A stretch of DNA of 64,000 nt from Candidatus Woesearchaeota archaeon CG10_big_fil_rev_8_21_14_0_10_44_13 (lineage in GTDB: Archaea > Nanobdellota > Nanobdellia > Woesearchaeales > UBA12501), in the NCBI GenBank assembly GCA_002762985.1, contig PCXZ01000030.1, positions 80,399 through 144,398 on the forward strand. Direction: 5' to 3'. Positions 18,152 to 45,073 of this stretch are shown piece after piece. Every line of letters starts with the position of its first letter. Within the stretch, counting starts at the first letter, position 1. The translations under genes were made by a program, and so were the position numbers. The notes under the pieces are model-generated. The model ran no database searches, had not been told where the DNA came from, and saw nothing but the letters and a program-made list of their open reading frames with translations.

Positions 18152-19498
18152 TCATCTGCTGGATTTTTTTGCCGTGTTTGCCATGAATTCCCTGAATGAA
18201 TCTATGACCCAATCAAGCTGCAGGCCATCTATCCCTGGATAAACGCCTATGAAGAAAGAATTCCTTGCGACAGTGTCAGAATTCCCGAGATTGCCTGAGA
18301 TCCTAATATTCGCGTCTTTATATGCCGGCTGTTTTGCGATATTGCCTGCGAAGATCATGCGTGTCTCTATCATCCTGCCGTTCAGCCATTCAAGCAGTTC
18401 CTGTCTCGAGAAAGGCGCATCCTCCCTGACGGACATCGGGAACGCAAACCACGATACATCCGATCTATCCAATGCCCGCGGCAGGACAAGATGATTGTCA
18501 TACGCCGAAAGCGCTTCGAAGAGCCTTGCGAAATTTTCCTTGCGTTTTTTTATGAATCCAGGCAGTTTTTCAAGCTGTGCAAGGCCCATTGCCGCCTGCA
18601 GATCCAGGGGTTTCATATTGTAGCCAATGTTAGTATAAAGATACCTGTGGTCCCATGGCTGGCCGTCAAGCTTGAACTTGAATCTTGAATTGCATGTGCC
18701 ATTTGGGTTTTTCTCGTCCCACTTGCAATAACAGGCGCGACCCCATGACCTCAGTGAGGATGTTATCTTCGCCAGCTCATCATCGTCTGTTGCAACTGCC
18801 CCCCCTTCCCCCATCGTTATGTGGTGGGCAGGATAAAAGCTGAATGTGCTCATATGGCCAAAGGCACCTGCCTGTTTTATGCCATATCTTGAACCTAATG
18901 CATCACAGCAGTCCTCTATGACAAACAAGCCGTGTTTTTCTGACAAGGCCATTATCTCGTCCATATCATTAGGATTGCCCAGGGTGTGGGGCACGAATAT
19001 TGCCTTTGTTTTCCTTGTGATTGCCTTTTTTGCGGCAGATAAGTCCATATTGCAGGTGTCCACCTCAACATCAACAAGGACAGGGATAAGATTGTTCTGC
19101 AATATGGGGTTGAGTGTCGTCGGGAATGTGACTGCGGGGGTTATCACCTCGTCCCGGGGGTTGAGGTGCCTGCTGAAGCTCCTGGAGCATAATGCTGATA
19201 CTGCCAGCAGGTTTGCTGAAGACCCTGAATTCGCCAGCAGCACATGCTTGACATTGAGGAATCTTGCCAGCTTTGATTCGAATTCATCACCATACCTTCC
19301 CAGGGTCAGCCAGAAATCCAGCAATGAGTCCGCCATCGCATTCATCTCTTTATCATCGAACACCCTTCCGCCGTAATGCACCTTTGATTTTCCAGGGATG
19401 AATCTCTTATCGGCGAATTTAAGGGAATGAAACTCTTTTATCTTTGAGAATATCTCTTTCCTGAGTCTTTTTTCATTCAGATCTTTTTTATCATCCAT
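18152..19498 (-). CDS. rfbH: CDP-6-deoxy-D-xylo-4-hexulose-3-dehydrase family (LPS biosynthesis protein RfbH/DdhC, E1)
   Basis: Aligns along its length to RfbH ('GRVFDD', 'NSGSSANLLA', 'SFYPAHHITMGEGGAV', 'IGVYPG'). It has the His-for-Lys 'AHH' hallmark of E1 in the DegT fold. Confidence 0.8.
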   Translation of the reverse strand: MDDKKDLNEKRLRKEIFSKIKEFHSLKFADKRFIPGKSKVHYGGRVFDDKEMNAMADSLLDFWLTLGRYGDEFESKLARFLNVKHVLLANSGSSANLLAVSALCSRSFSRHLNPRDEVITPAVTFPTTLNPILQNNLIPVLVDVEVDTCNMDLSAAKKAITRKTKAIFVPHTLGNPNDMDEIMALSEKHGLFVIEDCCDALGSRYGIKQAGAFGHMSTFSFYPAHHITMGEGGAVATDDDELAKITSSLRSWGRACYCKWDEKNPNGTCNSRFKFKLDGQPWDHRYLYTNIGYNMKPLDLQAAMGLAQLEKLPGFIKKRKENFARLFEALSAYDNHLVLPRALDRSDVSWFAFPMSVREDAPFSRQELLEWLNGRMIETRMIFAGNIAKQPAYKDANIRISGNLGNSDTVARNSFFIGVYPGIDGLQLDWVIDSFREFMANTAKKSSR

Positions 19499-23072: not shown

Positions 23073-23208
23073 TTTTACCCCCTTTGTCCCATAAAGTTAA
23101 GCCTGTATCTTTTTAAATATTGCTTTTTTATATGTGGTTAAAGGCTGTTAAGAAGCGCTAAAATGCAGGATAAGGCAAAGGTTTTATTGGCTTAAGATGG
23201 ATGTGAAA

Positions 23209-24321
23209 TCAAGAATACTTAAAGAAACCCTGCCCTGATTTCCTTCCCAGCTTCCCTTCCTTGACCATCTTCACCATTATCCCTGCAGGAAGATATTTCC
23301 TGTCATTAGTCTTATTGCGGATATTGTTCATTATCTCGAGCACCACATCCAGGCCTATGAGGTCCATGAGGGCCAGCGGCCCCATTGGGTGATTCAAGCC
23401 GAGCTTTACTGCCTTGTCTATATCCTCTTTTGAAGCAACGCCTTCGCCATATATATGGGCAGCCTCATTCAGATAAGGCACCATTATCCTGTTGACTATG
23501 AAACAAGGGGAATCTTTTGTTATGACTGGTGATTTACCGAGCGTTTCTGCAAATTCCACTGCAAAATTCAGTGTTTTTTCGGATGTATTCTTCCCTTTGA
23601 CAACCTCTACAAGGGCCATCCTCGGCACAGGGTTGAAGAAGTGTATGCCCAGAAACCTTGACGGATCCTTTAAGTTCTCGCCAAGCTCATCAACTGAAAG
23701 GGAAGAGGTGTTTGTGGCTATCACTGCGTTTTTTTTGCATATCTTGTCGAGCTTCCTGAAGTATTCATCCTTTGTCTTCTTGTCTTCAACGACTGACTCT
23801 ATCACAAGATCTACATCCCCCAGGTCTTCTATTCTTGCAGAAGGCCTATACCTGCCCATGGCCTCATTTTTATCCTTTTCAGCCATGAATTTCGCCATGA
23901 ACCTGCTTATCTCTTCACCTGCCTTTTTCAGCCTGTCCTCTGTCCTGCTTATGAGACGGACTTCCATGCCGTGCATAAGCGCAACTTCGGCTATGCCCAA
24001 TCCTGTGACTCCTGTGCCAACAATACCCATCTTAAGGCCATGCAGTGAGCCTTTGTCTTTGCCTTTTCCTGCTGGTTCCAAGGTATGCCCTACATCATAC
24101 CTTACGCCTGATTTGATTATGCCAAGATTGCCCTGATCATCCTCCACAAGGACATCAAAATAAGGCACTTGCTTATGGTCAGAAGAAGGAACAAGAACTT
24201 CAGTGAATGCCTTGACTTTGAGCTTACTGTCCTTTTTCTCAGAGACCTCTGATCTGCAGAATATGCATCTCTTCACGTCATAATAATACACTTTTCCGCA
24301 TTTTTTACAGACGAATACCAT
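23209..24321 (-). CDS. Fusion protein: DUF35 (Zn-ribbon + OB-fold thiolase-associated scaffold) fused to 3-hydroxyacyl-CoA (3-hydroxybutyryl-CoA) dehydrogenase
   Basis: The N-terminus has CKKCG...CIFC (a rubredoxin-like ribbon) followed by an OB-like β-rich segment of ~90 aa. The C-terminus has a 'GIVGTGVTGLGIA' NAD-binding motif and an HBD catalytic region ('ATNTSSLSV', 'HFFNPVP'). Confidence 0.65.
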   Translation of the reverse strand: MVFVCKKCGKVYYYDVKRCIFCRSEVSEKKDSKLKVKAFTEVLVPSSDHKQVPYFDVLVEDDQGNLGIIKSGVRYDVGHTLEPAGKGKDKGSLHGLKMGIVGTGVTGLGIAEVALMHGMEVRLISRTEDRLKKAGEEISRFMAKFMAEKDKNEAMGRYRPSARIEDLGDVDLVIESVVEDKKTKDEYFRKLDKICKKNAVIATNTSSLSVDELGENLKDPSRFLGIHFFNPVPRMALVEVVKGKNTSEKTLNFAVEFAETLGKSPVITKDSPCFIVNRIMVPYLNEAAHIYGEGVASKEDIDKAVKLGLNHPMGPLALMDLIGLDVVLEIMNNIRNKTNDRKYLPAGIMVKMVKEGKLGRKSGQGFFKYS

Positions 24322-24357
24322 TTTATTTTCAGATCATGTCTTCAATCATGTTCCAGA

Positions 24358-25494
24358 TCAATCTTCTTTCTTGAGTATGTGTATGACACATGTCCCTCCG
24401 ACCCCGCCTATGTTCTGCGCAAGCCCGATATTTGCACCTTTGACCTGCCTTTTTCCTGCTTCGCCCCTTAGCTGTGCCACAATCTCGCAGATCTGGGAAG
24501 CGCCAGTTGCGCCTATAGGATGCCCGTTAGCCTTCAATCCGCCGCCAGTGCCTATTGGTATTCTGCCATCGAGCTTTGTCTCCCCTTTCCTTACGAGATC
24601 CTTGCTCTCCCCGGGCTTGCAGAATCCCAAATCCTCCATCGCGACAAGCTCTGATATTGTGAAGCAGTCATGGACCTCGGCTATATCCACATCTTTTGCG
24701 GATATGCCTGCTTCCTTATAGGCCTCTGCTGCTGCAAGCCTTGTCGCCTTGAATGAGGTTATGTCCTTTCTCTGTGCAAGTGATATTGTGTCTGTTTTCA
24801 GGCTGGAAGCCAGGATCTTTATGTCCCTCTTTGATCTCTTTTCCCTTGACACGACAAGAGCAGCAGCTCCGTCACTTATTGGGCTGCAGTCAAAAAGCCT
24901 TAAAGGCGTGCAGACGATTGGTGATCTCTTTATCATATCAAGATCAACTTTTTTGTGGTAGAAATGCGCTTTCTCGTTGAGGTTTGCGTTCTCATGGGAT
25001 TTTAGGGCAACAAGCGCAAGATCATCAGCAGTCGTGCCATATTCTTCCATATGTTTCTTGGCTACGAGGGCGTATGCTGCAGGGAATATTAGGCCGTTGT
25101 TCTGGTCCATGCAACAGTCGCCGGCAGCGCATATGCCTTTTGTGAGCAATGAATTATCGATCCCATTCATCTTCTCTACCCCAAGGACAAGCACATTCTT
25201 GTATCTGCTTAGGGAGATTATCGCCTGATGCAGGGCTGCTCCACTCGATGAGCATGCAGTCTCGATCCTTATTATTGGGATATTAAGGCCAGGAAGAAGG
25301 CTTGATATGAGCGAGTTCATGTGAAGCTGGTTCTGCAAAATGCCGCCCAAGAAGTTCCCAACATATATCGCGTCTATCTCAGTTATGGGTATTCCGCTGT
25401 CTTCTATCGCATCGTACATTGCTTCATAAGCCAGCTCTGGCAGCCCTTTGTCCAGAACGCCGAATTTTGTCTTCCCGATCCCGCTTATATACAT
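24358..25494 (-). CDS. Thiolase (acetyl-CoA C-acetyltransferase, archaeal/SCP-x type)
   Basis: Thiolase-fold condensing enzyme. 'CSSSGAAL' around the active Cys, a C-terminal 'GHPIGATG' and 'GGVGG' are present. The ORF track start is 25515, but the ATG at 25494 (MYISGIGKTKFG) matches family N-termini. Confidence 0.7.
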   Translation of the reverse strand: MYISGIGKTKFGVLDKGLPELAYEAMYDAIEDSGIPITEIDAIYVGNFLGGILQNQLHMNSLISSLLPGLNIPIIRIETACSSSGAALHQAIISLSRYKNVLVLGVEKMNGIDNSLLTKGICAAGDCCMDQNNGLIFPAAYALVAKKHMEEYGTTADDLALVALKSHENANLNEKAHFYHKKVDLDMIKRSPIVCTPLRLFDCSPISDGAAALVVSREKRSKRDIKILASSLKTDTISLAQRKDITSFKATRLAAAEAYKEAGISAKDVDIAEVHDCFTISELVAMEDLGFCKPGESKDLVRKGETKLDGRIPIGTGGGLKANGHPIGATGASQICEIVAQLRGEAGKRQVKGANIGLAQNIGGVGGTCVIHILKKED

Positions 25495-25590
25495 TAAAAT
25501 ACACCTTATGATCATTCTATAATCATTCTATTATTCTTTCTTGCCCTTAATTATAAAAAGTTTTTGCATTGCCGGATTGATTGCAGGATT

Positions 25591-26679
25591 TCAGATCGTG
25601 AAATCAGAATCTCCTGCGGTCACGAACCAATTATCCGGATTTTTGAAAAAACGGATGTCCGGAAGATTTTTGGTGTCATCTATCTTCACTATGAACCTCT
25701 GGCCCATCGTCCTGGAATAGATGAACCCGTTCTTGCTGAACATCTTCCTATGCTGCCTCTTCATACCATAAGCCTGTATGGCGTCACAGCCCTCTTCAAT
25801 AAAATAGTCGTTTATTTTCCATATTAGGGCCTGCATTGTGCCAATGTCATGAGGGCTTGCTACAAACTCCACTACCCTGCCCCAGTTGAAATTCTCGCTT
25901 GATATCTTTGTAATGACGACATATCCATTTATCCTGCCTTTTTTGTCTGCAGCAGCGAATATCCTGAACCCCCTTGTGGGGTTTTTTGTGTATTTCCAGT
26001 CCAGATACTCCTTATCCCTCACTGCAGCAATACCCAAATCATCTGAGACTTCATCCCAGAACACATCGAATCTGCTGTCAAAATTTTTTAATTCATCGAT
26101 CGTGTGATCTGCAAGGTATCTGCCTGGCTTCTTTGCGCTGAAAAACATGGCAAGAATGAGCCCGAGAGGCCTGGAAAGCAGATAGGATAATCTTCCTTTT
26201 TTCATCTTCAGCGAGTATGACAGAAATTTCTCTGGATTGATTATCCTTATCATGGCCTTAGCCATATCCAGATTGGACCATCCCATGCTGCTTTCTATTC
26301 CATAAGCCACGTCCCCGACACCCAATGCAAGGCAGATATTGGCCTCTTCTTTCCATCTCTTCACCATTTCCTTCCCTATACCTTTGCCCCTGTGGCCAGG
26401 ATGGGCCATAAGGCCCCCGCCCCACGCAATCATCACATTCTTGTCGCCCATCTTAATCATGCCCGGATTTAAGTTTATATACCCGATGATCTTGCCTTTA
26501 TTTTCAACAACCCAGCTATCCAGCTTATGGTCCCTCAAGACAGGATTCTCCCTGGAGTACCAATGCCAGTTCTTTTTGAATTTTTCAGCTGTTTTGCTGC
26601 CAAAAACCAGCCTGCATAGGCTTATCACTCCTGCTAGATCAGATTCCCTGAAAGTCCGGGTCTTGTAATCCTTGTCCAT
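25591..26679 (-). CDS. Two-domain GNAT-fold acyltransferase (FemAB/CelD-like, Acetyltransf_6-type)
   Basis: 362 aa. 'MIAWGGGLMAHPGHRGKGIGKEMVKRW' is a GNAT acyl-CoA-binding motif, and a second GNAT-like half follows. It lies directly downstream of the thiolase/HBD pair. Confidence 0.5.
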   Translation of the reverse strand: MDKDYKTRTFRESDLAGVISLCRLVFGSKTAEKFKKNWHWYSRENPVLRDHKLDSWVVENKGKIIGYINLNPGMIKMGDKNVMIAWGGGLMAHPGHRGKGIGKEMVKRWKEEANICLALGVGDVAYGIESSMGWSNLDMAKAMIRIINPEKFLSYSLKMKKGRLSYLLSRPLGLILAMFFSAKKPGRYLADHTIDELKNFDSRFDVFWDEVSDDLGIAAVRDKEYLDWKYTKNPTRGFRIFAAADKKGRINGYVVITKISSENFNWGRVVEFVASPHDIGTMQALIWKINDYFIEEGCDAIQAYGMKRQHRKMFSKNGFIYSRTMGQRFIVKIDDTKNLPDIRFFKNPDNWFVTAGDSDFTI

Positions 26680-26853: not shown

Positions 26854-27393
26854 TTGATAAACATGTTATTGATGACTTGGAAAGTCGTAAGCAGAAATGT
26901 AAAAAGGATGTACCTGTACTTCTTCGGCACATGGGCTGTCCATTGCGAAGTCATCTATGATGATGGGGTGTGGGCAAAGATAAAAAGTCTCTGCAAAACA
27001 AGGAAGCTGATATGGTATTGCATAACACCTGTCAATTACGACCTTATGAGTGCTTCGGGGAACCTGAGAATGGGCAGGGAAGCGTATTCAAGGCTCCTTA
27101 AGAGGAGATACAAGGAAATTGAGGCCATGGGCCAGGAGATCCAATTGCATGTCCACCTTTCCATACTCAAGAACATGGGCAGAGGGCAGCAGATGAAGAT
27201 GATAAGAGATAGCAGGGAATGGATGCTGCAGAATGGTTTTAAGGTCACGAAATTCGTGCCAGGATGGTGGAATTATGACAATGACACCCTGGAAATACTG
27301 GAAGAGCTTGGCCTGAAGATGGTAGGCAAGGACAGGTATTATGAGATACATGATTACGAGCTCGGGGCATTGAATAAGCACCTTGGTGTCTGA
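26854..27393 (+). CDS. Polysaccharide deacetylase-like (CE4/NodB-fold) protein, short form
   Basis: 'VIYDDG' resembles NodB motif 1 (TFDDG) and 'LHVHLS' resembles the His motif. The call is tentative. Confidence 0.3.
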   Translation: MINMLLMTWKVVSRNVKRMYLYFFGTWAVHCEVIYDDGVWAKIKSLCKTRKLIWYCITPVNYDLMSASGNLRMGREAYSRLLKRRYKEIEAMGQEIQLHVHLSILKNMGRGQQMKMIRDSREWMLQNGFKVTKFVPGWWNYDNDTLEILEELGLKMVGKDRYYEIHDYELGALNKHLGV

Positions 27394-27449: not shown

Positions 27450-29222
27450 ATGAGGATAATAGGGATCCACGATGGGCATAATGCGACAGCGTGCCTGCTT
27501 GAGGATGGAGAACTGAAGGACTGCATAAGTGAAGAGAGATTCACGCAGTTCAAGAACCAGCCTGGATTCCCGAAGAATGCAGCAAGATGGATAATGGAGA
27601 AGAACGGCCTTTCTGCGGATGAAATTGATTTTGTCGCCCTGTCCTCATTCCTCATGAATGATGTGGAACACTACAAAAAATCCCAGACAATGGGCAATCA
27701 ACTCTTTGAAAAAAGGGCCTATATCCTCAAACCAGGCATTCTTAGGAGCGCAATGATAAATTCAGGGGCCTACGGCATCGCAAAGAAGGTTTTTGACAGG
27801 TATTATTACACACCAAAAAGGGATATAATGTATAAAGCCCTCCTTGAGAAAAGAAAGGAGGAGATATGCAGGAACATCGGCATAAACAAGGAGAGGATAA
27901 TAGTCGTTGACCACCATGCCGCCCATGCTTCTGCATCGTATTATGGCTCTTACTTCAATGATGAAGATTCTCTTATATTCACTGCAGACGCTTACGGCGA
28001 TTATGCCTCTGCAACAGTCTCCATAGGCAGCAAGGGCAGGATAAGGAAGGTATCATCAACAACAGACATGTCTTTGGGGGATTTCTATTCCGCAGTCACG
28101 AGGTTCCTCGGCCTCAAGGTATGGGAGCACGAGTACAAGGTCATGGGCCTTGCAGCATACTGTAAGGACAAGGATGTCATGGAGATTTATGGCATTCTCA
28201 GAGGGATGATCGAACTGTCAAAAAAAGACCTGAAATTCCGCAAAAAAGTGGTGGATTCCTATTACACCCATATGAAAAATGTCCTTGTAGGTTATAGGTT
28301 CGACTGGATAGCAGGCGCTGCACAGAAGCTTACAGAAGACCTTGTGACTGAATGGGTCAGGGAAGCCATAAAGAGGTACAAGATAAGGAATGTCTGCGGC
28401 GGTGGCGGATGTTTCATGAATGTCAAGGTGAACAAGAAGATAATCGAGATGCCTGAAGTAAAGAAATTTTTTGCGATACCCAGCTCAGGAGATGAATCCA
28501 CATGCATAGGCGCGGTATATTTCGTCCATGCAGAAAAAGACAAGTTGGGGGTGAAGCCTTTCTTCTCGCCTTATCTTGGAATTTCTTATGACAAGGATTA
28601 CATAAAGAGAGTAATAGAAAAGAAGAACCTGAAAAAGAGATTCAGGATCACATTTGAGGAGGATATGGAGAAGAAGGTCGCAAGCCTGCTTGCGAAAGGG
28701 AATGTTGTCGCGAGATTCAGGGGGAGATGCGAATACGGCGCCAGGGCCCTTGGAAACAGGAGCATACTTGCAGACGCCTCGAACTTTGCAGTGATCCCGG
28801 AGATAAACAAGATGATAAAGATGAGGGATTTCTGGATGCCCTTTGCATGCTCGATCATGGCTGAGAGGGCAAGCAAGTACCTCATAAACCCGAAGAATGT
28901 GCCTTTATCATACATGGTGATAGCCTGCGACACTGTGAATAAGAACAGGAACGACATACTTGCCGGAACCCACCAGTTCGACAAGACAGCAAGGCCTCAG
29001 GTGGTCTCCAAAGAGATGAACGAGAGCTACCACAGGCTGATAGCCGAGTTTGAGAAACTCACAGGAAGAGGCGGTGTCCTTAACACATCATTCAATATCC
29101 ATGGCAAGCCCCTTGTATGCTCTCCTGAAGATGCAATAAATACGATGGAGAACTCCGGCCTGGATTACCTTGCGATGGAAGATTACCTTTTCGAGAAGAT
29201 CAACAAAGACAAGGAAGAATGA
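27450..29222 (+). CDS. Carbamoyltransferase, NodU/CmcH family
   Basis: 590 aa with an 'MRIIGIHDGHNATACLLEDGEL' N-terminus (Carbam_trans_N) and a conserved C-terminal domain. This is an O-carbamoylation enzyme family. Confidence 0.75.
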   Translation: MRIIGIHDGHNATACLLEDGELKDCISEERFTQFKNQPGFPKNAARWIMEKNGLSADEIDFVALSSFLMNDVEHYKKSQTMGNQLFEKRAYILKPGILRSAMINSGAYGIAKKVFDRYYYTPKRDIMYKALLEKRKEEICRNIGINKERIIVVDHHAAHASASYYGSYFNDEDSLIFTADAYGDYASATVSIGSKGRIRKVSSTTDMSLGDFYSAVTRFLGLKVWEHEYKVMGLAAYCKDKDVMEIYGILRGMIELSKKDLKFRKKVVDSYYTHMKNVLVGYRFDWIAGAAQKLTEDLVTEWVREAIKRYKIRNVCGGGGCFMNVKVNKKIIEMPEVKKFFAIPSSGDESTCIGAVYFVHAEKDKLGVKPFFSPYLGISYDKDYIKRVIEKKNLKKRFRITFEEDMEKKVASLLAKGNVVARFRGRCEYGARALGNRSILADASNFAVIPEINKMIKMRDFWMPFACSIMAERASKYLINPKNVPLSYMVIACDTVNKNRNDILAGTHQFDKTARPQVVSKEMNESYHRLIAEFEKLTGRGGVLNTSFNIHGKPLVCSPEDAINTMENSGLDYLAMEDYLFEKINKDKEE

Positions 29223-29255: not shown

Positions 29256-30479
29256 GTGTTGCTGAGAGGTGCAAAAATCACAACAGTGGATGATGTCCGT
29301 TATTTCATAGATAAGAGGAAGTGGGAAAATCATAGAGGGCCGCCTCCTGGCCATCCCTGCGCTGATCCTAAGCTGAAAAACACCGCAAAGTGCAGGAGGA
29401 CCATTGAACTCTTTAATTCTGCCGTGACATATGACATAAAGAAGAATGTGGACAGGAAAGAGAGCGTAAGATGCCTGACAGGCATGCAGAAGGCAGACCT
29501 TAAGAGGAAAGACAAGCTTAAGATACTACATATCGGCACAGGCACATTGATCCAGAATGTCTACAGGGACCTGCAGCAGAAAGACGGGAATGTGAGCCAT
29601 GTCATGGTGCATACGACGACTGCAAAAAAAGGGGGCTATGACATGAACCTGAGCATGAGCCCTTATGAGTTCGGGTGGGGCCATAACATAAAGTCTATAT
29701 TGGCGAACACATTCAACGGCAACTTCAGGGATCTGTTAAGGTATGATGTATACCACATACATCATGATGCATTCTTATTGCCCAGCAAGAAGGATATAGC
29801 GTGGCTTAAATACAAGTTCAAGAAAAAGGTCCTTCTCGACTGGAGGGGTCAGGGAGTGAGGGTCTGGGGCTTCAACTGCATCCCCTGGCTAAGCAAGATA
29901 AGGCAGATATGCTCCAGCCCTGACCTGCTTGATTTCCAGGAGTATGAGGGGCAATTCGAATGGCTTCCTTTCGGCATTGACATTGGCTATTTTAACAGGA
30001 TAAAAACAACGAGCGACGAGGATAATCCGCTGATAATGCACGCTACTGCGAACTGGAAGATAAAAGGCACGGATCATGTGCTGAAAGCTGTTGATGAGCT
30101 CAAGAAGGAAGGTTATAAGTTCAGGTTCCTGCTCAATGACAAGGTGCCTTATGAGACGACTGTAAAGAATTACGCAAAGAGTGATATAGTCGTTGATTGG
30201 ATAAATCCGATCTATGGGATATATGGGACTGTATCCATAGAGAGCATGGCCCTCGGCAAGGCATGCTGCGCATCGCTCAACCCTAAATATGACAGGTATC
30301 TGCCTGGCTGCCCTGTTGTCAACTGCAGCCCAAAAGATTTAAAAGAAAAGCTCATTTATCTCATAGAAAACCCTTCTGAAAGGAAAAGGATAGGAAAAGA
30401 GGGGAAAGAATATGTAAGGAAGATGCATGATATAAAAAAGATAAAAGACAAGTTATATGATATATATGACGAATGCTGA
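29256..30479 (+). CDS. GT-B fold glycosyltransferase-like protein (GT4-like C-terminus)
   Basis: 'LIMHATANWKIKGTDHVLKAV...ESMALGKACCAS' resembles the GT4 C-terminal domain. The real start may be the ATG at 29484 (MQKADLK...). Confidence 0.4.
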   Translation: MLLRGAKITTVDDVRYFIDKRKWENHRGPPPGHPCADPKLKNTAKCRRTIELFNSAVTYDIKKNVDRKESVRCLTGMQKADLKRKDKLKILHIGTGTLIQNVYRDLQQKDGNVSHVMVHTTTAKKGGYDMNLSMSPYEFGWGHNIKSILANTFNGNFRDLLRYDVYHIHHDAFLLPSKKDIAWLKYKFKKKVLLDWRGQGVRVWGFNCIPWLSKIRQICSSPDLLDFQEYEGQFEWLPFGIDIGYFNRIKTTSDEDNPLIMHATANWKIKGTDHVLKAVDELKKEGYKFRFLLNDKVPYETTVKNYAKSDIVVDWINPIYGIYGTVSIESMALGKACCASLNPKYDRYLPGCPVVNCSPKDLKEKLIYLIENPSERKRIGKEGKEYVRKMHDIKKIKDKLYDIYDEC

Positions 30480-30901
30480 ATGATATTGCAGCTAAGGTGT
30501 TACCCATGGAAGAAAGATTCAAAAAATGGAAAAAACCGGCCATAAAAGACGGAAAACCGACAAAATGGAACTGGATAGTGAGGCACCCTGACGGTCTTGT
30601 CCTTGGGAAAAAGACAGACATAGGCGCATTCACATACATAAATGCTGCATATGGCGTTGAAATAGGGAATGATGTGCAGATAGGCTCGCACTGCTCAATA
30701 TACTCGATTAGCACTATTGACGATAAAAAAGGGAAGGTTGTACTGAAAAAAAATTGCAGGATAGGGTCCCACAGCGTGATTATGCCTGGTGTCACAATAG
30801 GCGAGAATTCAGTCATAGGCGCTTTCAGTTTTGTGAATAAAGATGTGCCTCCCGGTTGTGTCGCTTTCGGCATCCCTGCAAAAGTGAAGGGGAAAAGATG
30901 A
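30473..30901 (+). CDS. Hexapeptide-repeat (LβH) sugar acetyltransferase
   Basis: Repeated [LIV]-G-x-x-x-x-I hexapeptides: 'IGNDVQIGSHCSI', 'IGSHSVIMPGVTIGENSVIGAFSFV'. An alternative start is at 30506. Confidence 0.7.
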   Translation: MLNDIAAKVLPMEERFKKWKKPAIKDGKPTKWNWIVRHPDGLVLGKKTDIGAFTYINAAYGVEIGNDVQIGSHCSIYSISTIDDKKGKVVLKKNCRIGSHSVIMPGVTIGENSVIGAFSFVNKDVPPGCVAFGIPAKVKGKR

Positions 30902-32107: not shown

Positions 32108-33244
32108 ATGACTCAAATAAATCTTTGGCAGCCCAATGATCACAGCATCTGGAGGGTAGGGTATGATCCTTTAAGTAATGATAATCCTGAGTCCAAAACA
32201 GTGGAAGATGTTGTCAACAAACATTATTCTGGGCATATATTCAAGCCTATTGAAGTGGAAAGGCTTATGGGCAAGGAAGGTGGCAGCAGCATCAATTACA
32301 AGGTCAAAGGAAAAGATGGGCCAGTCATCCACCTGAAAAACTTCCTGAGATTCAAATGCGATCCTGACCGGCTTAACAGGGAGATTGAGACACTGGATAG
32401 AGTGATAGCAGTGGCAGACCATCTCGTCGGAAGGGGCATAAAAACTTTCACATTCATAGAGGCAAAAGATGGTAGGAGATATGTACGTGAAGGCGATTCC
32501 CAATGGATGGCATCTATATTCATAGAAGGCGACCATTACAAGGGGACACTCCCTCAGCTGCAGCAGTTTGCAAAAGAGCTTGGAAGAATAGATAAAAGTA
32601 TGCAAAGTTTTCAGAATGCGATTGACAGCGAATATGTTGAAATCCCTTTCAAACCTGAAATCCTGAGGGAGCTTAAAGACCTGAATAAAAAAGCCATGTC
32701 CGAAAATCCAAGCGAGATGGATCATCTTGCGCAGACGGTCATAAATGAGATACTTGAACCCATGCTGCAGGGGATTGTTGAAGGAGTAAAAAGGTATTCA
32801 TTTGAACCGGGAATTACTGTCGGAAACATCCATCCTCATCATACTCTATATGAAGGCGATGACCTCAAAGCAGTCTCAGATCCTGAAAAAGCAAGCTTTG
32901 GTTATCCCGTTATTGAACAGATAAGTTTCAGTGCGCACAGGTTCATAAGGCAGGCGATTGTCTATATGTTCACCTGCCATGGCGTTGAACCAAACAAAGA
33001 AGAGATAAAAAGGCTTATGGACGGCTTCATTAAAGGTTATATCAAGGAGAATAATCTGTCAGCCAAAGAGATTGAAGCGATCCCATTGATGATAGCAAAA
33101 ACAAATGCCCACAAGGCATTGAGGATTCTCCAGTATCATTATGGCCTTGAAATAGACACAATGGGGAGGCCCGTGGAAAAGCTGCAGTCTGAGCTTTACA
33201 AATTCGCTACCCATATCCGTGAAGCAGAACATTTTAAGGTCTAA
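32108..33244 (+). CDS. Hypothetical protein, possibly a kinase-like (APH/ChoK-fold) phosphotransferase
   Basis: 378 aa. 'GNIHPHHTLYEGDDL...DPE' weakly resembles the APH catalytic loop and DxE motif. It lies inside the nonulosonic-acid module. Confidence 0.2.
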   Translation: MTQINLWQPNDHSIWRVGYDPLSNDNPESKTVEDVVNKHYSGHIFKPIEVERLMGKEGGSSINYKVKGKDGPVIHLKNFLRFKCDPDRLNREIETLDRVIAVADHLVGRGIKTFTFIEAKDGRRYVREGDSQWMASIFIEGDHYKGTLPQLQQFAKELGRIDKSMQSFQNAIDSEYVEIPFKPEILRELKDLNKKAMSENPSEMDHLAQTVINEILEPMLQGIVEGVKRYSFEPGITVGNIHPHHTLYEGDDLKAVSDPEKASFGYPVIEQISFSAHRFIRQAIVYMFTCHGVEPNKEEIKRLMDGFIKGYIKENNLSAKEIEAIPLMIAKTNAHKALRILQYHYGLEIDTMGRPVEKLQSELYKFATHIREAEHFKV

Positions 33245-43681: not shown

Positions 43682-45073
43682 TCAGAAAACCATCTCAAAC
43701 TGCCTGCTTTTCTCTGCATCGCGTTTTGCTTCTGTTATGAGTCTCCTGTAGACGGCCTTCATCTTCCCCGACATATCCAGTGTCTCAGGTATGAAAACAG
43801 TCTGCATGCATCTCCTTCTTGTGCAGTCATCTATGACATTCTCCCGGCAGTTGGAATTATCTATATTTCCTTCCCTGACGGACATGTTCAGGAAGGGATT
43901 GTGGTCATAAGGCTCTGGCGTGCTGTGGAAATTGACATCCCCCTGCAGGGTCTTTTTTATCACAATGGGCGCATGCTCAAATGAGCAGGCCAATTCTATT
44001 GATTCGCTGCCTTTCTCATACCTTTCTGCCACCATCTCGTAAGGGCTGTCCTTGAAAACAATCGTGTAGTAGGGCATCTTGGTATAGCCCATCTCAGTTA
44101 TCTTTTCCCTTATCTTCCTCACCCACCTGTTCTCGTTCATCTGGTATGAGCTGCTCCTTCCGAAATCTTTTGTCTTCTGCCTCATGACTGCAAATCTTGC
44201 CAATCCTACATCTCCTGTCCTGTTCAGCGCTGCGCTGTAATGCTCGAATATTTCTGTCAGTCTCCTGTTTATGCTGTAAAGCGTTTCGCCTTTGACATAA
44301 TGCGCTATCAGGACATCGACTTCAAGGCTTGAGAGGAAAGGATTGCTGACAAAATCAAATGCGAGAGTAGGGTTTATCCTCCTTGTGTTCCTCTTCCCAT
44401 AATCGATCGAGAAATCCCTACCTAACCTGAGCTGCATGAATTGTGCTGTCTCAAGGGCAGCTGGATGGGAACCCATCACTCTTAGGTTCTTCTGGCTTTC
44501 AAAATCGCCATCAGGAGCAGAGCTGTATATGTCTTCATACTGTATGAGCCCGGAATCAGTGACAAATGGGTTGTTTATGTGGACGCTGTTGAATCCCTTG
44601 CTCTTTGATTTTATCATTCCTTCGAGGGACCTGCCGTAGATCCTTGGGTTTTCTATTGCGCTCATGCCTCCCTCGACCCAGAGATTCTTTGATCCCTCTT
44701 TCTTCTGTATGCGATCCACAAGTATCCTTTCAAGGTCTTCGATAGGGCATTGCAGCAATCCCTCTTTGCCATTGATCGGGAACTTGGGGCTGTAAGATAG
44801 GGTGCCTTCCTGCATCTTCTGCGTCTCATCCTTTTTGAATGCCTGCCATCTCTCAAGCCATTTTATAAGCTGGGGCTGGGTCGTTATTATGGTGTGGCCG
44901 ATTATATACCTTGCAGGATCACAGAATAAGGTGTTTGACCCCGATCTTATGGCTACCCCGTAATTCCTGGGGAGGATTATGTTCGTTTCTGGGATGTTAG
45001 TTTCAAGAATATCCGCCCCGGAGTCATTTTCCTGCCCTGTTCCCTTGCCTGTATGCCCTGTATCCTGCGCCAT
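43682..45073 (-). CDS. Hypothetical protein (463 aa) with low-complexity N-terminus and C-terminal 4-Cys cluster
   Basis: No recognisable family. The C-terminus has C...C-x7-C-x4-C, and the gene is flanked by AT-rich intergenic DNA on both sides. Confidence 0.3.
   Translation of the reverse strand: MAQDTGHTGKGTGQENDSGADILETNIPETNIILPRNYGVAIRSGSNTLFCDPARYIIGHTIITTQPQLIKWLERWQAFKKDETQKMQEGTLSYSPKFPINGKEGLLQCPIEDLERILVDRIQKKEGSKNLWVEGGMSAIENPRIYGRSLEGMIKSKSKGFNSVHINNPFVTDSGLIQYEDIYSSAPDGDFESQKNLRVMGSHPAALETAQFMQLRLGRDFSIDYGKRNTRRINPTLAFDFVSNPFLSSLEVDVLIAHYVKGETLYSINRRLTEIFEHYSAALNRTGDVGLARFAVMRQKTKDFGRSSSYQMNENRWVRKIREKITEMGYTKMPYYTIVFKDSPYEMVAERYEKGSESIELACSFEHAPIVIKKTLQGDVNFHSTPEPYDHNPFLNMSVREGNIDNSNCRENVIDDCTRRRCMQTVFIPETLDMSGKMKAVYRRLITEAKRDAEKSRQFEMVF

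What the first reader, a model, noticed from the sequence alone, without database searches (positions are those of the whole stretch)
23209..26679. Thiolase + DUF35::3-hydroxyacyl-CoA dehydrogenase fusion + two-domain GNAT: a candidate 3-hydroxybutyryl-donor / N-acylation module inside the glycan island
In archaea the DUF35 Zn-ribbon/OB protein scaffolds the thiolase with HMG-CoA synthase, so the unfavourable acetoacetyl-CoA condensation is pulled forward by channeling. Here the DUF35 module is fused to a 3-hydroxyacyl-CoA dehydrogenase instead, and it sits next to the thiolase. That suggests an analogous channeling complex producing 3-hydroxybutyryl-CoA. A FemAB/CelD-like two-domain GNAT acyltransferase lies immediately downstream. 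The whole trio is embedded between sugar-nucleotide and glycosyltransferase genes. 3-hydroxybutanoyl N-acyl groups are known decorations of amino sugars and nonulosonic acids. This points to a dedicated acyl-donor supply plus transfer system for glycan modification, not central metabolism.
Basis: partly seen in the sequence, partly recalled or inferred. Interest (0 to 1): 0.75.

Follow-up and report, generated by a model that had tools for sequence, protein, structure and literature searches.

The report
Thiolase–reductase acyl-donor module for glycan acylation
A small symbiotic archaeon keeps, inside its surface-sugar gene island, a three-gene set that most likely makes 3-hydroxybutyryl-CoA on a tethered two-enzyme complex and attaches that group to a surface sugar; this is a new variant of known thiolase scaffolding systems.

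Summary
The three genes are real, lie at the stated coordinates on the minus strand, and are transcribed GNAT, then thiolase, then fusion. The sequence is 100% identical to a Candidatus Woesearchaeota (DPANN) genome.

The fusion's first ~85 residues fail the Pfam DUF35 thresholds. Its predicted structure nevertheless matches essentially only DUF35 proteins in the PDB. An exhaustive profile search shows this mini-domain is always N-terminal and is fused to three partners: 3-hydroxyacyl-CoA dehydrogenase (HBD), SDR ketoreductase or DUF362. In 14 of 14 distinct locus arrangements (16 fetched loci plus the window) an archaeal-type thiolase gene lies just upstream. That supports a thiolase-docking role.

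These pairs sit repeatedly in glycan clusters beside N-acyltransferases of three different folds, and often beside deacetylases. The GNAT is a tandem GNAT of the Eis/N-myristoyltransferase/glucosamine-N-acetyltransferase type, not Fem/CelD-like. Its distant homologs sit beside acyl-CoA carboxylases instead.

The adjacent CDP-sugar genes make a 3,6-dideoxyhexose, not an amino sugar, so the acceptor is unknown. All function is inferred. Verdict: new variant of a known kind, interest about 0.6.

The parts
25591..26679 (-). Tandem-GNAT acyl-CoA N-acyltransferase, 362 aa, first gene of the trio
24358..25515 (-). Archaeal/SCP2-type acetoacetyl-CoA thiolase, 385 aa
   Evidence: Thiolase_C_1 E=5.6e-48. 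PRK06064 scores 435.8 bits, above the 420 cut-off. The best PDB match is 6esq_A, the thiolase of the thiolase/HMG-CoA synthase/DUF35 complex, E=4.1e-78. The aligned active-site Cys (ETACSSSG), VHDCF and GHPIGATG motifs are kept.
24070..24321 (-). Mini DUF35-like domain (Zn ribbon plus OB fold), residues 1-84 of the fusion, proposed thiolase-docking module
24034..24069 (-). Lys/Glu/Gly-rich linker, residues 85-96
   Evidence: Low pLDDT (30-47) for residues 81-92. Length and sequence vary among homologs.
23209..24033 (-). 3-hydroxyacyl-CoA dehydrogenase domain (residues 97-370) plus stop codon
   Evidence: 3HCDH_N E=1.6e-54 and 3HCDH E=4.8e-34. Best PDB matches are 3-hydroxybutyryl-CoA dehydrogenases 9fbd and 4kue, E about 1e-70. 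The NTSS, HFFNP, E239 and VNR motifs are invariant in the family. The Asp that specifies NAD in 9fbd and 4kue is replaced by an invariant Ser125-Arg126.
26854..27393 (+). Conserved 179-aa ORF divergent from the GNAT, possibly a reduced CE4/NodB-like deacetylase (low confidence)
   Evidence: Orthologs lie in the same divergent position next to the GNAT in L002, L015-L017 and L032. They are 44-49% identical. The best profile-versus-PDB hits are chitin deacetylases 7y51 (E=0.0074) and 7fbw (E=0.016), aligned on the HxxH and F(R/V)P motifs. Pfam DUF2334 gives E=0.0013, below its cut-off.

Best explanation
The trio is a self-contained acyl-donor and transfer module for surface-glycan decoration in a DPANN archaeon.

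1. The thiolase condenses two acetyl-CoA into acetoacetyl-CoA. This step is thermodynamically unfavourable.
2. The next gene's product carries a minimal DUF35-like Zn-ribbon/OB domain that docks it onto the thiolase. Its fused 3-hydroxyacyl-CoA dehydrogenase domain therefore reduces acetoacetyl-CoA at once, probably to the (S) isomer and possibly with NADPH. This pulls the condensation forward, as HMG-CoA synthase does in the archaeal thiolase/HMGCS/DUF35 complex.
3. The tandem GNAT then transfers the 3-hydroxybutyryl group from CoA to an amino group of a sugar or glycan intermediate. That amine may be freed by a deacetylase such as the adjacent 179-aa protein.

Shown: gene content, domain architecture, predicted folds, conserved catalytic motifs and conserved synteny.
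Inferred: complex formation, channelling, product identity and stereochemistry, cofactor, the GNAT's donor and its acceptor.
For: - The thiolase's nearest solved relative is the DUF35-bound thiolase 6esq_A, with catalytic motifs intact.
- A profile search of 1.84 billion representatives finds 119 proteins with this domain. Their matches lie at the N-terminus, apart from a few very long proteins with internal repeated matches. Partners are HBD (29), DUF362 (33) and SDR (4).
- A Thiolase_C_1 thiolase gene lies directly upstream, or one or two genes upstream, in 14 of 14 distinct arrangements: the window, L001, L002, L021-L025, L026, L027, L028/L031, L029/L030 and L032.
- Acyltransferases of three folds accompany the pair. 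Tandem GNAT: window, L002, L022, L026, L032. Hexapeptide LbH: L001, L021, L029. Antibiotic_NAT: L027.
- CE4 deacetylases accompany it in L001, L021, L026 and L029. Sugar dehydratase and aminotransferase genes sit directly upstream in L024.
- Distant members of the same GNAT family sit directly after an acyl-CoA carboxylase set in three loci (L018, L019/L020, L033). The family is therefore repeatedly coupled to an acyl-CoA-making module.
- The window itself is a glycan island.
- The invariant Ser-Arg in place of the NAD-specifying Asp fits a biosynthetic, reductive direction. The link from that substitution to cofactor preference rests on the general Rossmann-fold rule, from my own knowledge.
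- N-(3-hydroxybutanoyl) amino sugars and their transferases (FdhC, QdhC, Pse5Ac7(R3Hb)) are established in bacteria (PMC4869667, PMC3726653).
Against: - No complex model or experiment exists.
- The operon-adjacent CDP-sugar pathway uses an E1-type 3-dehydrase with His, not Lys, so it gives no amine.
- The nonulosonic-acid gene set has its own LbH acyltransferase candidate at 30473-30901. The acceptor therefore remains unidentified.
- One GNAT homolog (41% identical, L015-L017) has no acyl-CoA module beside it.
- An AT-rich 136-bp gap follows the fusion gene, so co-transcription with the downstream sugar genes is not assured.
- Some DUF362-type relatives (L028, L031) sit in fatty-acid-synthase-like clusters, not glycan clusters.
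Confidence: 0.55

Rival explanations
1. Central or fermentative C4 metabolism. The thiolase and HBD are the first two steps of butyrate fermentation, reverse beta-oxidation or polyhydroxybutyrate metabolism, and merely happen to lie in the glycan island.
For: The enzymes belong to the same families as clostridial Thl and Hbd. The best PDB matches are butyrate-pathway HBDs. NCBI names the protein 3-hydroxybutyryl-CoA dehydrogenase.
Against: No crotonase, butyryl-CoA dehydrogenase/Etf, PHA synthase or phosphotransbutyrylase was found in the parts of the window annotated. The pair recurs in glycan clusters of different composition, always with an N-acyltransferase. The NAD-specifying Asp is replaced by Ser-Arg.
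Confidence: 0.1
2. Start of an ACP-independent, archaeal-type fatty-acyl synthesis. The thiolase plus ketoreductase would make longer 3-hydroxyacyl-CoA for a lipid anchor or lipoglycan, with the GNAT as an N-acyltransferase for a longer chain, as N-myristoyltransferase is.
Against: No dehydratase or enoyl reductase lies in or near the trio, either in the window or in the other HBD-type loci. Without them the chain cannot grow beyond C4.
Confidence: 0.12
3. The donor module is real but the acceptor is not a sugar. The tandem GNAT 3-hydroxybutyrylates a protein (an N-terminus or lysine of an S-layer or pilin protein) or a small molecule. Alternatively it uses plain acetyl-CoA, and its linkage to the thiolase pair is only positional.
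For: The closest structures, Eis and N-myristoyltransferase, acylate proteins and aminoglycosides. No amine-bearing sugar pathway is directly adjacent. A GNAT homolog occurs without any acyl-CoA module.
Against: All GNAT-family loci examined lie within glycan gene clusters. Glucosamine N-acetyltransferases and MshD are also strong structural matches. CE4-type deacetylases recur next to the module. The GNAT-thiolase-fusion order is conserved in the window and four other loci.
Confidence: 0.15
4. The N-terminal Zn-ribbon/OB domain is not a thiolase-docking module. It would be a nucleic-acid-binding or regulatory domain like the DUF35-fold protein Trf, and the HBD would work independently of the thiolase.
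Against: Synteny with a thiolase gene holds in 14 of 14 arrangements across three different fusion partners, often with overlapping stop and start codons. All other structural matches are thiolase-bound DUF35 subunits.
Confidence: 0.05

Closest known systems
[quoted passage not shown] 2018, cited in PMC12960953)
   Same: The thiolase is of the same type: 6esq_A is its best PDB match at E=4e-78. A Zn-ribbon/OB partner of DUF35 fold is present. The proposed logic is the same: an exergonic second enzyme held on the thiolase pulls the unfavourable condensation forward.
   Different: The second enzyme is a 3-hydroxyacyl-CoA dehydrogenase, not HMG-CoA synthase. It is covalently fused to the DUF35-like domain rather than bound by a free scaffold. 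The domain lacks the roughly 18 N-terminal residues of canonical DUF35 (alignment) and escapes the Pfam models. The context is glycan decoration, not the mevalonate pathway.
DUF35 domains fused to the enzyme that partners a thiolase-fold protein: ChsH2(DUF35)-Ltp2 (6ok1), Shy(DUF35)-Sal (9myr) and the HMGS-DUF35 fusion of Pseudomonas fluorescens (PMC11321319, PMC12329534, PMC12960953)
   Different: In those systems the DUF35 is C-terminal to a MaoC hydratase or to HMGS, and the systems are catabolic (steroid side chain) or of unknown role. Here the domain is N-terminal, minimal, fused to HBD, SDR or DUF362, and found mainly in DPANN-type archaeal contigs.
Bacterial sugar N-(3-hydroxybutanoyl)transferases FdhC and QdhC, and Pse5Ac7(R3Hb) biosynthesis (PMC4869667, PMC3726653)
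   Same: The proposed end result is the same: a 3-hydroxybutanoyl amide on an amino sugar within a surface-polysaccharide gene cluster.
   Different: As described in those papers, the clusters carry the transferase and no thiolase or dehydrogenase is reported. The donor presumably comes from general metabolism, which is my inference. Here a dedicated donor-making pair is encoded with the transferase. I did not compare the sequences of FdhC or QdhC. The bacterial groups cited are the (R) isomer, whereas the 3HCDH family typically yields (S); that last point is from my own knowledge.
Tandem-GNAT acyltransferases: Eis, N-myristoyltransferase, MshD, glucosamine N-acetyltransferases
   Different: Only 11-15% identical. 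It lacks the C-terminal SCP2-like domain of Eis: 362 aa against about 400, with 286-306 residues aligned. Substrates are unknown.

Membership tests
DUF35 (Pfam PF12172 zf-ChsH2 + PF01796 OB_ChsH2_C) | Scores above the Pfam gathering thresholds | tested here: not met
   PF12172 gives 16.2 bits against a cut-off of 23.2, E=0.0094. PF01796 gives no hit. Of 108 family members only 7 touch PF12172, best E=0.0025, and PF01796 is not among the families listed.
DUF35 (Pfam PF12172 zf-ChsH2 + PF01796 OB_ChsH2_C) | Four-Cys rubredoxin-like Zn ribbon followed by an OB fold | tested here: met
DUF35 (Pfam PF12172 zf-ChsH2 + PF01796 OB_ChsH2_C) | Encoded next to, and bound to, an SCP2/archaeal-type thiolase-fold protein | tested here: met
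   The genomic part is met: a thiolase gene lies upstream in 14 of 14 distinct arrangements. Physical binding cannot be tested with these tools.
DUF35 (Pfam PF12172 zf-ChsH2 + PF01796 OB_ChsH2_C) | Canonical length of about 120-145 aa with an N-terminal segment before the Zn ribbon | tested here: not met
   The domain starts at residue 1-5 and ends near residue 84. In the alignment to 6esq_E, query residue 4 pairs with chain residue 19. PDB DUF35 chains are 118-146 aa.
3-hydroxyacyl-CoA dehydrogenase (Pfam 3HCDH_N + 3HCDH) | Both Pfam domains above threshold, with the catalytic Ser/His/Glu/Asn positions kept | tested here: met
   185 and 117 bits against cut-offs of 22. NTSS, HFFNP, E239 and VNR are invariant and aligned to 9fbd and 4kue. 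The NCBIfam subfamily PRK05808 scores 304 bits, below its 408 cut-off, so it is not an exact named subfamily.
Archaeal acetyl-CoA acetyltransferase (thiolase of the DUF35 complexes) | NCBIfam thiolase model above cut-off, with the catalytic Cys, HDxF and GHx motifs | tested here: met
   PRK06064 scores 435.8 bits, above 420. The equivalog AcCoTHIOL_METTL scores 387.6 bits, below 600, so that one is not met. The motifs align to 6esq_A.
Tandem GNAT, Eis-like (Pfam Acetyltransf_9) | PF13527 above threshold and a two-GNAT-domain fold | tested here: met
Sugar N-(3-hydroxybutanoyl)transferase (FdhC/QdhC type) | Sequence relationship to FdhC or QdhC, and transfer of 3-hydroxybutanoyl to an NDP-amino sugar | not tested
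   No reference sequences were compared and the activity cannot be tested here. The resemblance is functional only and is inferred.

The most novel reading that the evidence does not exclude
DPANN archaea, and perhaps some CPR bacteria, may carry a modular and so far unrecognised family of thiolase complexes. In these, a minimal N-terminal DUF35-like tag fused to interchangeable beta-keto-processing enzymes (HBD, SDR ketoreductase, DUF362) docks them onto a dedicated thiolase. The result would be a private, channelled supply of short hydroxyacyl-CoA donors used only to N-acylate surface glycans. A sister arrangement would pair the same tandem-GNAT family with an acyl-CoA carboxylase, giving a malonyl-type donor. 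If so, organisms with almost no central metabolism would be paying for surface-glycan acyl diversity with self-contained donor cassettes, and DUF362 would gain its first pathway context.
Probability: 0.45. Interest if true: 0.72.

Novelty: new variant of a known kind. Interest (0 to 1): 0.62.

Why it matters
- It would extend the thiolase/DUF35 channelling principle to a reductive branch that makes 3-hydroxybutyryl-CoA. So far the principle is known for mevalonate synthesis, steroid side-chain cleavage, benzylsuccinate degradation and Friedel-Crafts acylases.
- It would show the DUF35 fold acting as a portable docking tag on at least three enzyme families. Pfam does not recognise this subfamily, so current annotation calls the protein a plain 3-hydroxybutyryl-CoA dehydrogenase. 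That label invites wrong metabolic reconstructions of DPANN genomes as butyrate fermenters.
- It gives a testable prediction about the surface chemistry of uncultivated, host-dependent archaea: N-3-hydroxybutanoyl sugars.
- It gives a compact two-protein device for pulling acetyl-CoA into C4 hydroxyacyl-CoA, which may be useful in engineering.
- It provides a first genomic handle on DUF362.

Tried and rejected
- The genome-contig scan with the whole fusion returned only unfused HBDs, with matches starting at residue 91 or later. It gave no information on the fusion.
- The search for homologous proteins with the whole fusion was swamped by double-HBD actinobacterial proteins. Only 8 true fusions appeared in the list.
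- The profile of the N-domain against PDB sequences placed DUF35 entries second and third, but at E=0.29 and 0.62, which is not significant.
- hhalign of the N-domain profile against the one canonical DUF35 I held (L031 14901-15212) gave probability 0.25. Only the 'PY' segment aligned.
- BLASTP of the 179-aa ORF family against the CE4 deacetylases of related loci found nothing significant. Only the profile-versus-PDB search (E=0.007) and Pfam DUF2334 (E=0.0013) hint at a CE4-like fold.
- I considered that the RfbH-like gene at 18152-19498 might be a true aminotransferase supplying the acceptor. I rejected this because it has His at the E1 position (sfypaHHitmgegg, as in wild-type 3bcx), where the H220K mutant 3bb8 has Lys.
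- I considered the GNAT as the missing PseH/LegH of the nonulosonic-acid set. This is weakened by an LbH acyltransferase ORF at 30473-30901.
- Literature searches combining DUF35 with 3-hydroxybutyryl-CoA dehydrogenase, and 3-hydroxybutanoyl with N-acyltransferase and gene cluster, returned nothing. Searches on Woesearchaeota plus hydroxybutyryl-CoA returned no title or abstract pointing to this module; those papers were not opened.
- No multimer prediction of thiolase plus fusion was possible with the tools and caps.


Full report
**1. What is in the sequence**

Coordinates 23209-26679 are filled by three minus-strand ORFs separated by gaps of 75 and 36 bp.
- The first is a 362-aa GNAT at 26679..25591.
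- The second is a 385-aa thiolase at 25515..24358.
- The third is a 370-aa protein at 24321..23209. Its residues 98-369 form a complete 3-hydroxyacyl-CoA dehydrogenase (3HCDH_N E=1.6e-54, 3HCDH E=4.8e-34), preceded by about 95 extra residues with two CxxC pairs.

The fusion protein is 100% identical to an NCBI protein of 'Candidatus Woesearchaeota archaeon CG10_big_fil_rev_8_21_14...', a DPANN archaeon, on a 153-kb contig.

**2. Surroundings**

Roughly the first 43 kb of the window is a surface-glycan island.
- On the same strand, after the trio, come a GT2 (AglJ/Dpm-like), glucose-1-phosphate cytidylyltransferase (TIGR02623, 329 bits, above its cut-off), a CDP-glucose 4,6-dehydratase-like SDR, another SDR, an RfbH-like PLP/PMP enzyme and a PMT_2 glycosyltransferase.
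- On the other strand, from 26854, come a conserved 179-aa ORF, a NodU-like carbamoyltransferase and a GT1.
- Further on come a hexapeptide-repeat ORF (30473-30901), a PseF-like cytidylyltransferase, a NeuB-like synthase, a flippase, a DegT aminotransferase, three SDRs, UDP-glucose dehydrogenase and a phosphohexomutase.
- Upstream (1-16 kb) are more GT2, GT1 and PMT_2 genes and an AsnB-type amidotransferase.

The RfbH-like protein aligns end to end with E1 dehydrase (3bcx, E=3e-130). It carries His where aminotransferases have Lys: 'sfypaHHitmgegg', identical to wild-type E1, whereas the H220K mutant 3bb8 has K. The adjacent CDP pathway therefore makes a 3,6-dideoxyhexose and supplies no amine.

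A 136-bp AT-rich gap separates the fusion gene from the GT2. The trio may therefore be its own transcription unit.

**3. Is the N-terminal piece DUF35?**

By sequence, no.
- PF12172 scores 16.2 bits (cut-off 23.2) and PF01796 does not hit.
- Among 108 family members only 7 touch PF12172 weakly.
- A profile of eight homologs against all PDB sequences ranks the DUF35 of the thiolase/HMGCS complex (6esq_E) and the DUF35-fold protein Trf second and third. The alignments are in register, but E is only 0.29 and 0.62.
- hhalign against one canonical DUF35 is not significant.

By predicted fold, yes.
- The AF2 model of residues 1-92 has pLDDT 79.5 and is ordered to about residue 84.
- Foldseek's top 16 PDB hits are all DUF35 proteins, probability 0.82-1.0.

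The scores are modest and rest on a model. The domain is also shorter than canonical DUF35, because it lacks the segment before the Zn ribbon. I therefore call it a minimal DUF35-like domain, not a member of the Pfam families.

**4. The test that carries most weight: distribution and synteny**

An exhaustive HMMER search of 1.84 billion representatives with the N-domain profile found 119 proteins (86 at E<=1e-10). The domain lies at the N-terminus, apart from a few very long proteins with internal repeated matches. The partners are 3HCDH (29 members), DUF362 (33) and adh_short SDR (4). Most of the rest are short fragments, plus about 20 longer proteins with no recognised partner.

I then looked at the gene neighbourhoods of all three types.
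- HBD type: the window, L001, L002, L021-L025 and L032.
- DUF362 type: L026, L027, L028 and L031.
- SDR type: L029/L030.

In every one a Thiolase_C_1-type thiolase gene lies directly upstream, often with overlapping stop and start codons, or one or two genes upstream. That is 14 of 14 distinct arrangements. The HBD-type thiolases are 64-71% identical to the window's.

The window thiolase's nearest solved relative is the DUF35-bound thiolase 6esq_A (E=4e-78), with the catalytic Cys, HDCF and GHP motifs retained. Other DUF35-partnered thiolase-fold proteins (BbsB, PhlC, Ltp2, Sal, MucB) are also in the hit list.

A domain that moves between three enzyme families yet never leaves a thiolase is best explained as the thiolase-docking element. 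All three partners are plausibly enzymes acting on the beta-keto product: two are ketoreductase families and DUF362 is of unknown function.

**5. Link to glycans and to acyl transfer**

L001 and L021:
- They read CE4 deacetylase, thiolase, double SDR, fusion, hexapeptide acyltransferase.
- In L001, WbpG-like, HisH/HisF-like, PIG-L, WbqC and AsnB genes follow.

L024:
- It reads GT1, a GDP-mannose-dehydratase-like SDR, DegT aminotransferase, thiolase, fusion.

GNAT-containing loci:
- L002, L022 and L032 repeat the window's order of GNAT, thiolase, fusion.
- L022's GNAT is assigned by its N-terminal sequence only.
- L002 and L032 also carry the divergent 180-aa ORF.

L026:
- It reads thiolase, N-domain::DUF362, Acetyltransf_9 GNAT, CE4 deacetylase.
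- It sits among GT2 and PMT_2 genes.

L027:
- It reads thiolase, fusion, Antibiotic_NAT-family acetyltransferase.
- A flippase and a GT2 are present.

L029:
- It reads GT4, thiolase, N-domain::SDR.
- A hexapeptide acyltransferase, a UDP-sugar dehydrogenase, a 2-epimerase, a CE4 deacetylase, AsnB and a flippase surround it.

So N-acyltransferases of three unrelated folds, and frequently a deacetylase, accompany the thiolase pair inside glycan clusters of differing sugar content. That is the pattern expected for a donor-supply cassette serving an N-acylation step. In several cases the amine may be freed by removal of an acetyl group.

**6. The GNAT**

It belongs to a small family, with 31 clusters at E<=1e-5 in 5.8 billion proteins. 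The AF2 model has pLDDT 90.3 and shows two GNAT-like halves.

Distant family members (28-31% identical) in three independent loci sit directly after a complete acyl-CoA carboxylase set. That set comprises BioY, BCCP, biotin carboxylase, BirA and carboxyltransferase. A CE4 deacetylase lies upstream and GT, DUF2206 and pyruvyl-transferase genes lie around it (L018, L019/L020, L033). The same acyltransferase family is thus coupled alternately to two different acyl-CoA-making modules. This argues that its donor is the neighbour's product rather than bulk acetyl-CoA.

One homolog (41% identical, L015-L017) has no such module. The coupling is therefore not universal.

**7. Further inferences**

The HBD domain keeps the catalytic positions. 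The acidic residue that specifies NAD in 9fbd ('LVD') and 4kue ('VRD') is replaced by Ser125-Arg126, invariant in the eight full-length fusions. By the usual Rossmann-fold rule (my own knowledge) this suggests NADPH use, which fits a biosynthetic direction. The 3HCDH family normally gives (S)-3-hydroxyacyl-CoA. The SDR-type variants may give the (R) isomer.

The 179-aa ORF divergent from the GNAT is conserved in position in L002, L015-L017 and L032. It has weak CE4/NodB-like signals: chitin deacetylase 7y51 at E=0.007 and Pfam DUF2334 at E=0.0013. I treat a deacetylase role as a low-confidence hint.

**8. What remains open**

The acceptor is unknown. The neighbouring CDP pathway gives no amine, and the nonulosonic-acid set has its own LbH acyltransferase candidate. 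Complex formation, channelling, product, cofactor and the GNAT's donor are all inferred. The DUF362-type relatives in L028 and L031 lie in fatty-acid-synthase-like clusters with FabA, extra thiolases, a CoA-transferase, an SDR, a canonical DUF35 and MaoC. The docking tag is therefore not restricted to glycan chemistry.

**9. Comparison with known systems and novelty**

The principle is established: DUF35 holds a thiolase-fold enzyme together with the next enzyme, and is sometimes fused to that enzyme. Examples are the thiolase/HMGCS/DUF35 complex, ChsH2-DUF35/Ltp2, Shy/Sal, BbsAB, PhlABC, MucABC and an HMGS-DUF35 fusion (PMC12960953, PMC12329534, PMC11321319).

N-3-hydroxybutanoyl sugars and their transferases are known in bacteria (PMC4869667, PMC3726653). 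As described in those papers, the clusters are not reported to carry donor-making genes.

I found no description of a DUF35-type domain fused to a 3-hydroxyacyl-CoA dehydrogenase or SDR, or of a thiolase/HBD donor cassette in a glycan cluster. The library searched is incomplete.

My verdict is a new variant of a known kind. Interest is 0.62: a specialist in thiolase complexes or archaeal glycobiology would find it notable and directly testable, but it is not a new category of system.

Noticed in passing
L026 7001-8392; L027 858-2255; L028 7001-8455; L031 7001-8455: The same mini DUF35-like N-domain is fused to DUF362 (PF04015, function unknown) in at least 33 representative proteins, each directly after a thiolase gene. 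This gives DUF362 a pathway context, acting on or near a thiolase product, that I have not seen described.
   Followed up: partly
L018 6446-9110; L019 3237-9077; L020 249-2925; L033 3415-9110: Distant homologs of the window's tandem GNAT (28-31% identical) sit directly after an acyl-CoA carboxylase set. L019 and L033 show the full set of BioY, BCCP, biotin carboxylase, BirA and carboxyltransferase; L018 and L020 show the carboxyltransferase. The loci lie in glycan clusters, and L018, L019 and L033 also carry a CE4 deacetylase. One is in Ca. Argoarchaeum ethanivorans. This suggests a malonyl-type acyl decoration.
   Followed up: partly
L031 5380-15455 and L028 5382-12466: A fatty-acid-synthase-like cluster. 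L028 is a Woesearchaeota record; L031 is an unassigned metagenome contig. The shared core reads FabA-like dehydratase, thiolase, N-domain::DUF362, second thiolase, family III CoA-transferase, methyltransferase, SDR. L031 continues with a KASIII-like protein, a third thiolase, a canonical DUF35 (PF01796) and MaoC. A biotin carboxylase, BirA and a 4HBT thioesterase lie upstream.
   Followed up: no
L029/L030 5875-7996: A third fusion type, N-domain::SDR (adh_short, KR), lies directly after a thiolase in a groundwater-metagenome glycan cluster. A hexapeptide acyltransferase, a faint FemAB-like ORF, a UDP-sugar dehydrogenase, a 2-epimerase and a CE4 deacetylase are nearby.
   Followed up: partly
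window 18152-19498 (-): The RfbH-like protein is an E1-type PMP-dependent 3-dehydrase, with His at the Lys position and a conserved Cys cluster 'CYCKWDEKNPNGTC'. This implies CDP-3,6-dideoxyhexose synthesis in a DPANN archaeon. No E3-type reductase was seen next to it.
   Followed up: partly
window 30473-30901 (+): A 142-aa hexapeptide-repeat (LbH) acyltransferase-like ORF lies just upstream of the PseF-like cytidylyltransferase. It was recognised by eye from its repeat pattern and was not scanned against Pfam.
   Followed up: no
window 26854-27393 (+); L002 473-1015; L015 9359-9901; L032 2500-3042: A conserved ~180-aa protein is always divergent from the tandem GNAT. Its invariant motifs include WxVHxE, ITPVN, LHVHLS, FVPGWW and IHDY. 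It shows only weak CE4/NodB-like signals, so it may be a reduced deacetylase.
   Followed up: partly
window 23947-23952 (fusion residues 124-125; Ser125-Arg126 is 23944-23949): The NAD-specifying acidic residue of HBDs is replaced by Ser-Arg, invariant in all eight full-length fusions. This suggests NADPH preference.
   Followed up: partly
window 23073-23208: The 136-bp AT-rich intergenic gap between the fusion gene and the GT2 contains TATA-like runs ('ATATAAAAAAGCAATATTTAAAAAG' on the coding strand). It may be an internal archaeal promoter separating the trio from the CDP-sugar genes.
   Followed up: no
window 27450-29222 (+): A NodU/CmcH-type carbamoyltransferase lies in the island, pointing to carbamoylation as a further glycan decoration.
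   Followed up: no
window 32108-33244 (+) and 43682-45073 (-): Two long ORFs (378 and 463 aa) have no Pfam hit; the first also has no NCBIfam hit. The first lies between the cytidylyltransferase and the NeuB-like synthase.
   Followed up: no
L001 8413-10011; L021 3962-5705; L023 3769-4572: In several HBD-type loci an extra SDR (single or double adh_short) is inserted between the thiolase and the fusion. Two ketoreductase families of opposite usual stereospecificity are thus present together, and the reason is unknown.
   Followed up: no
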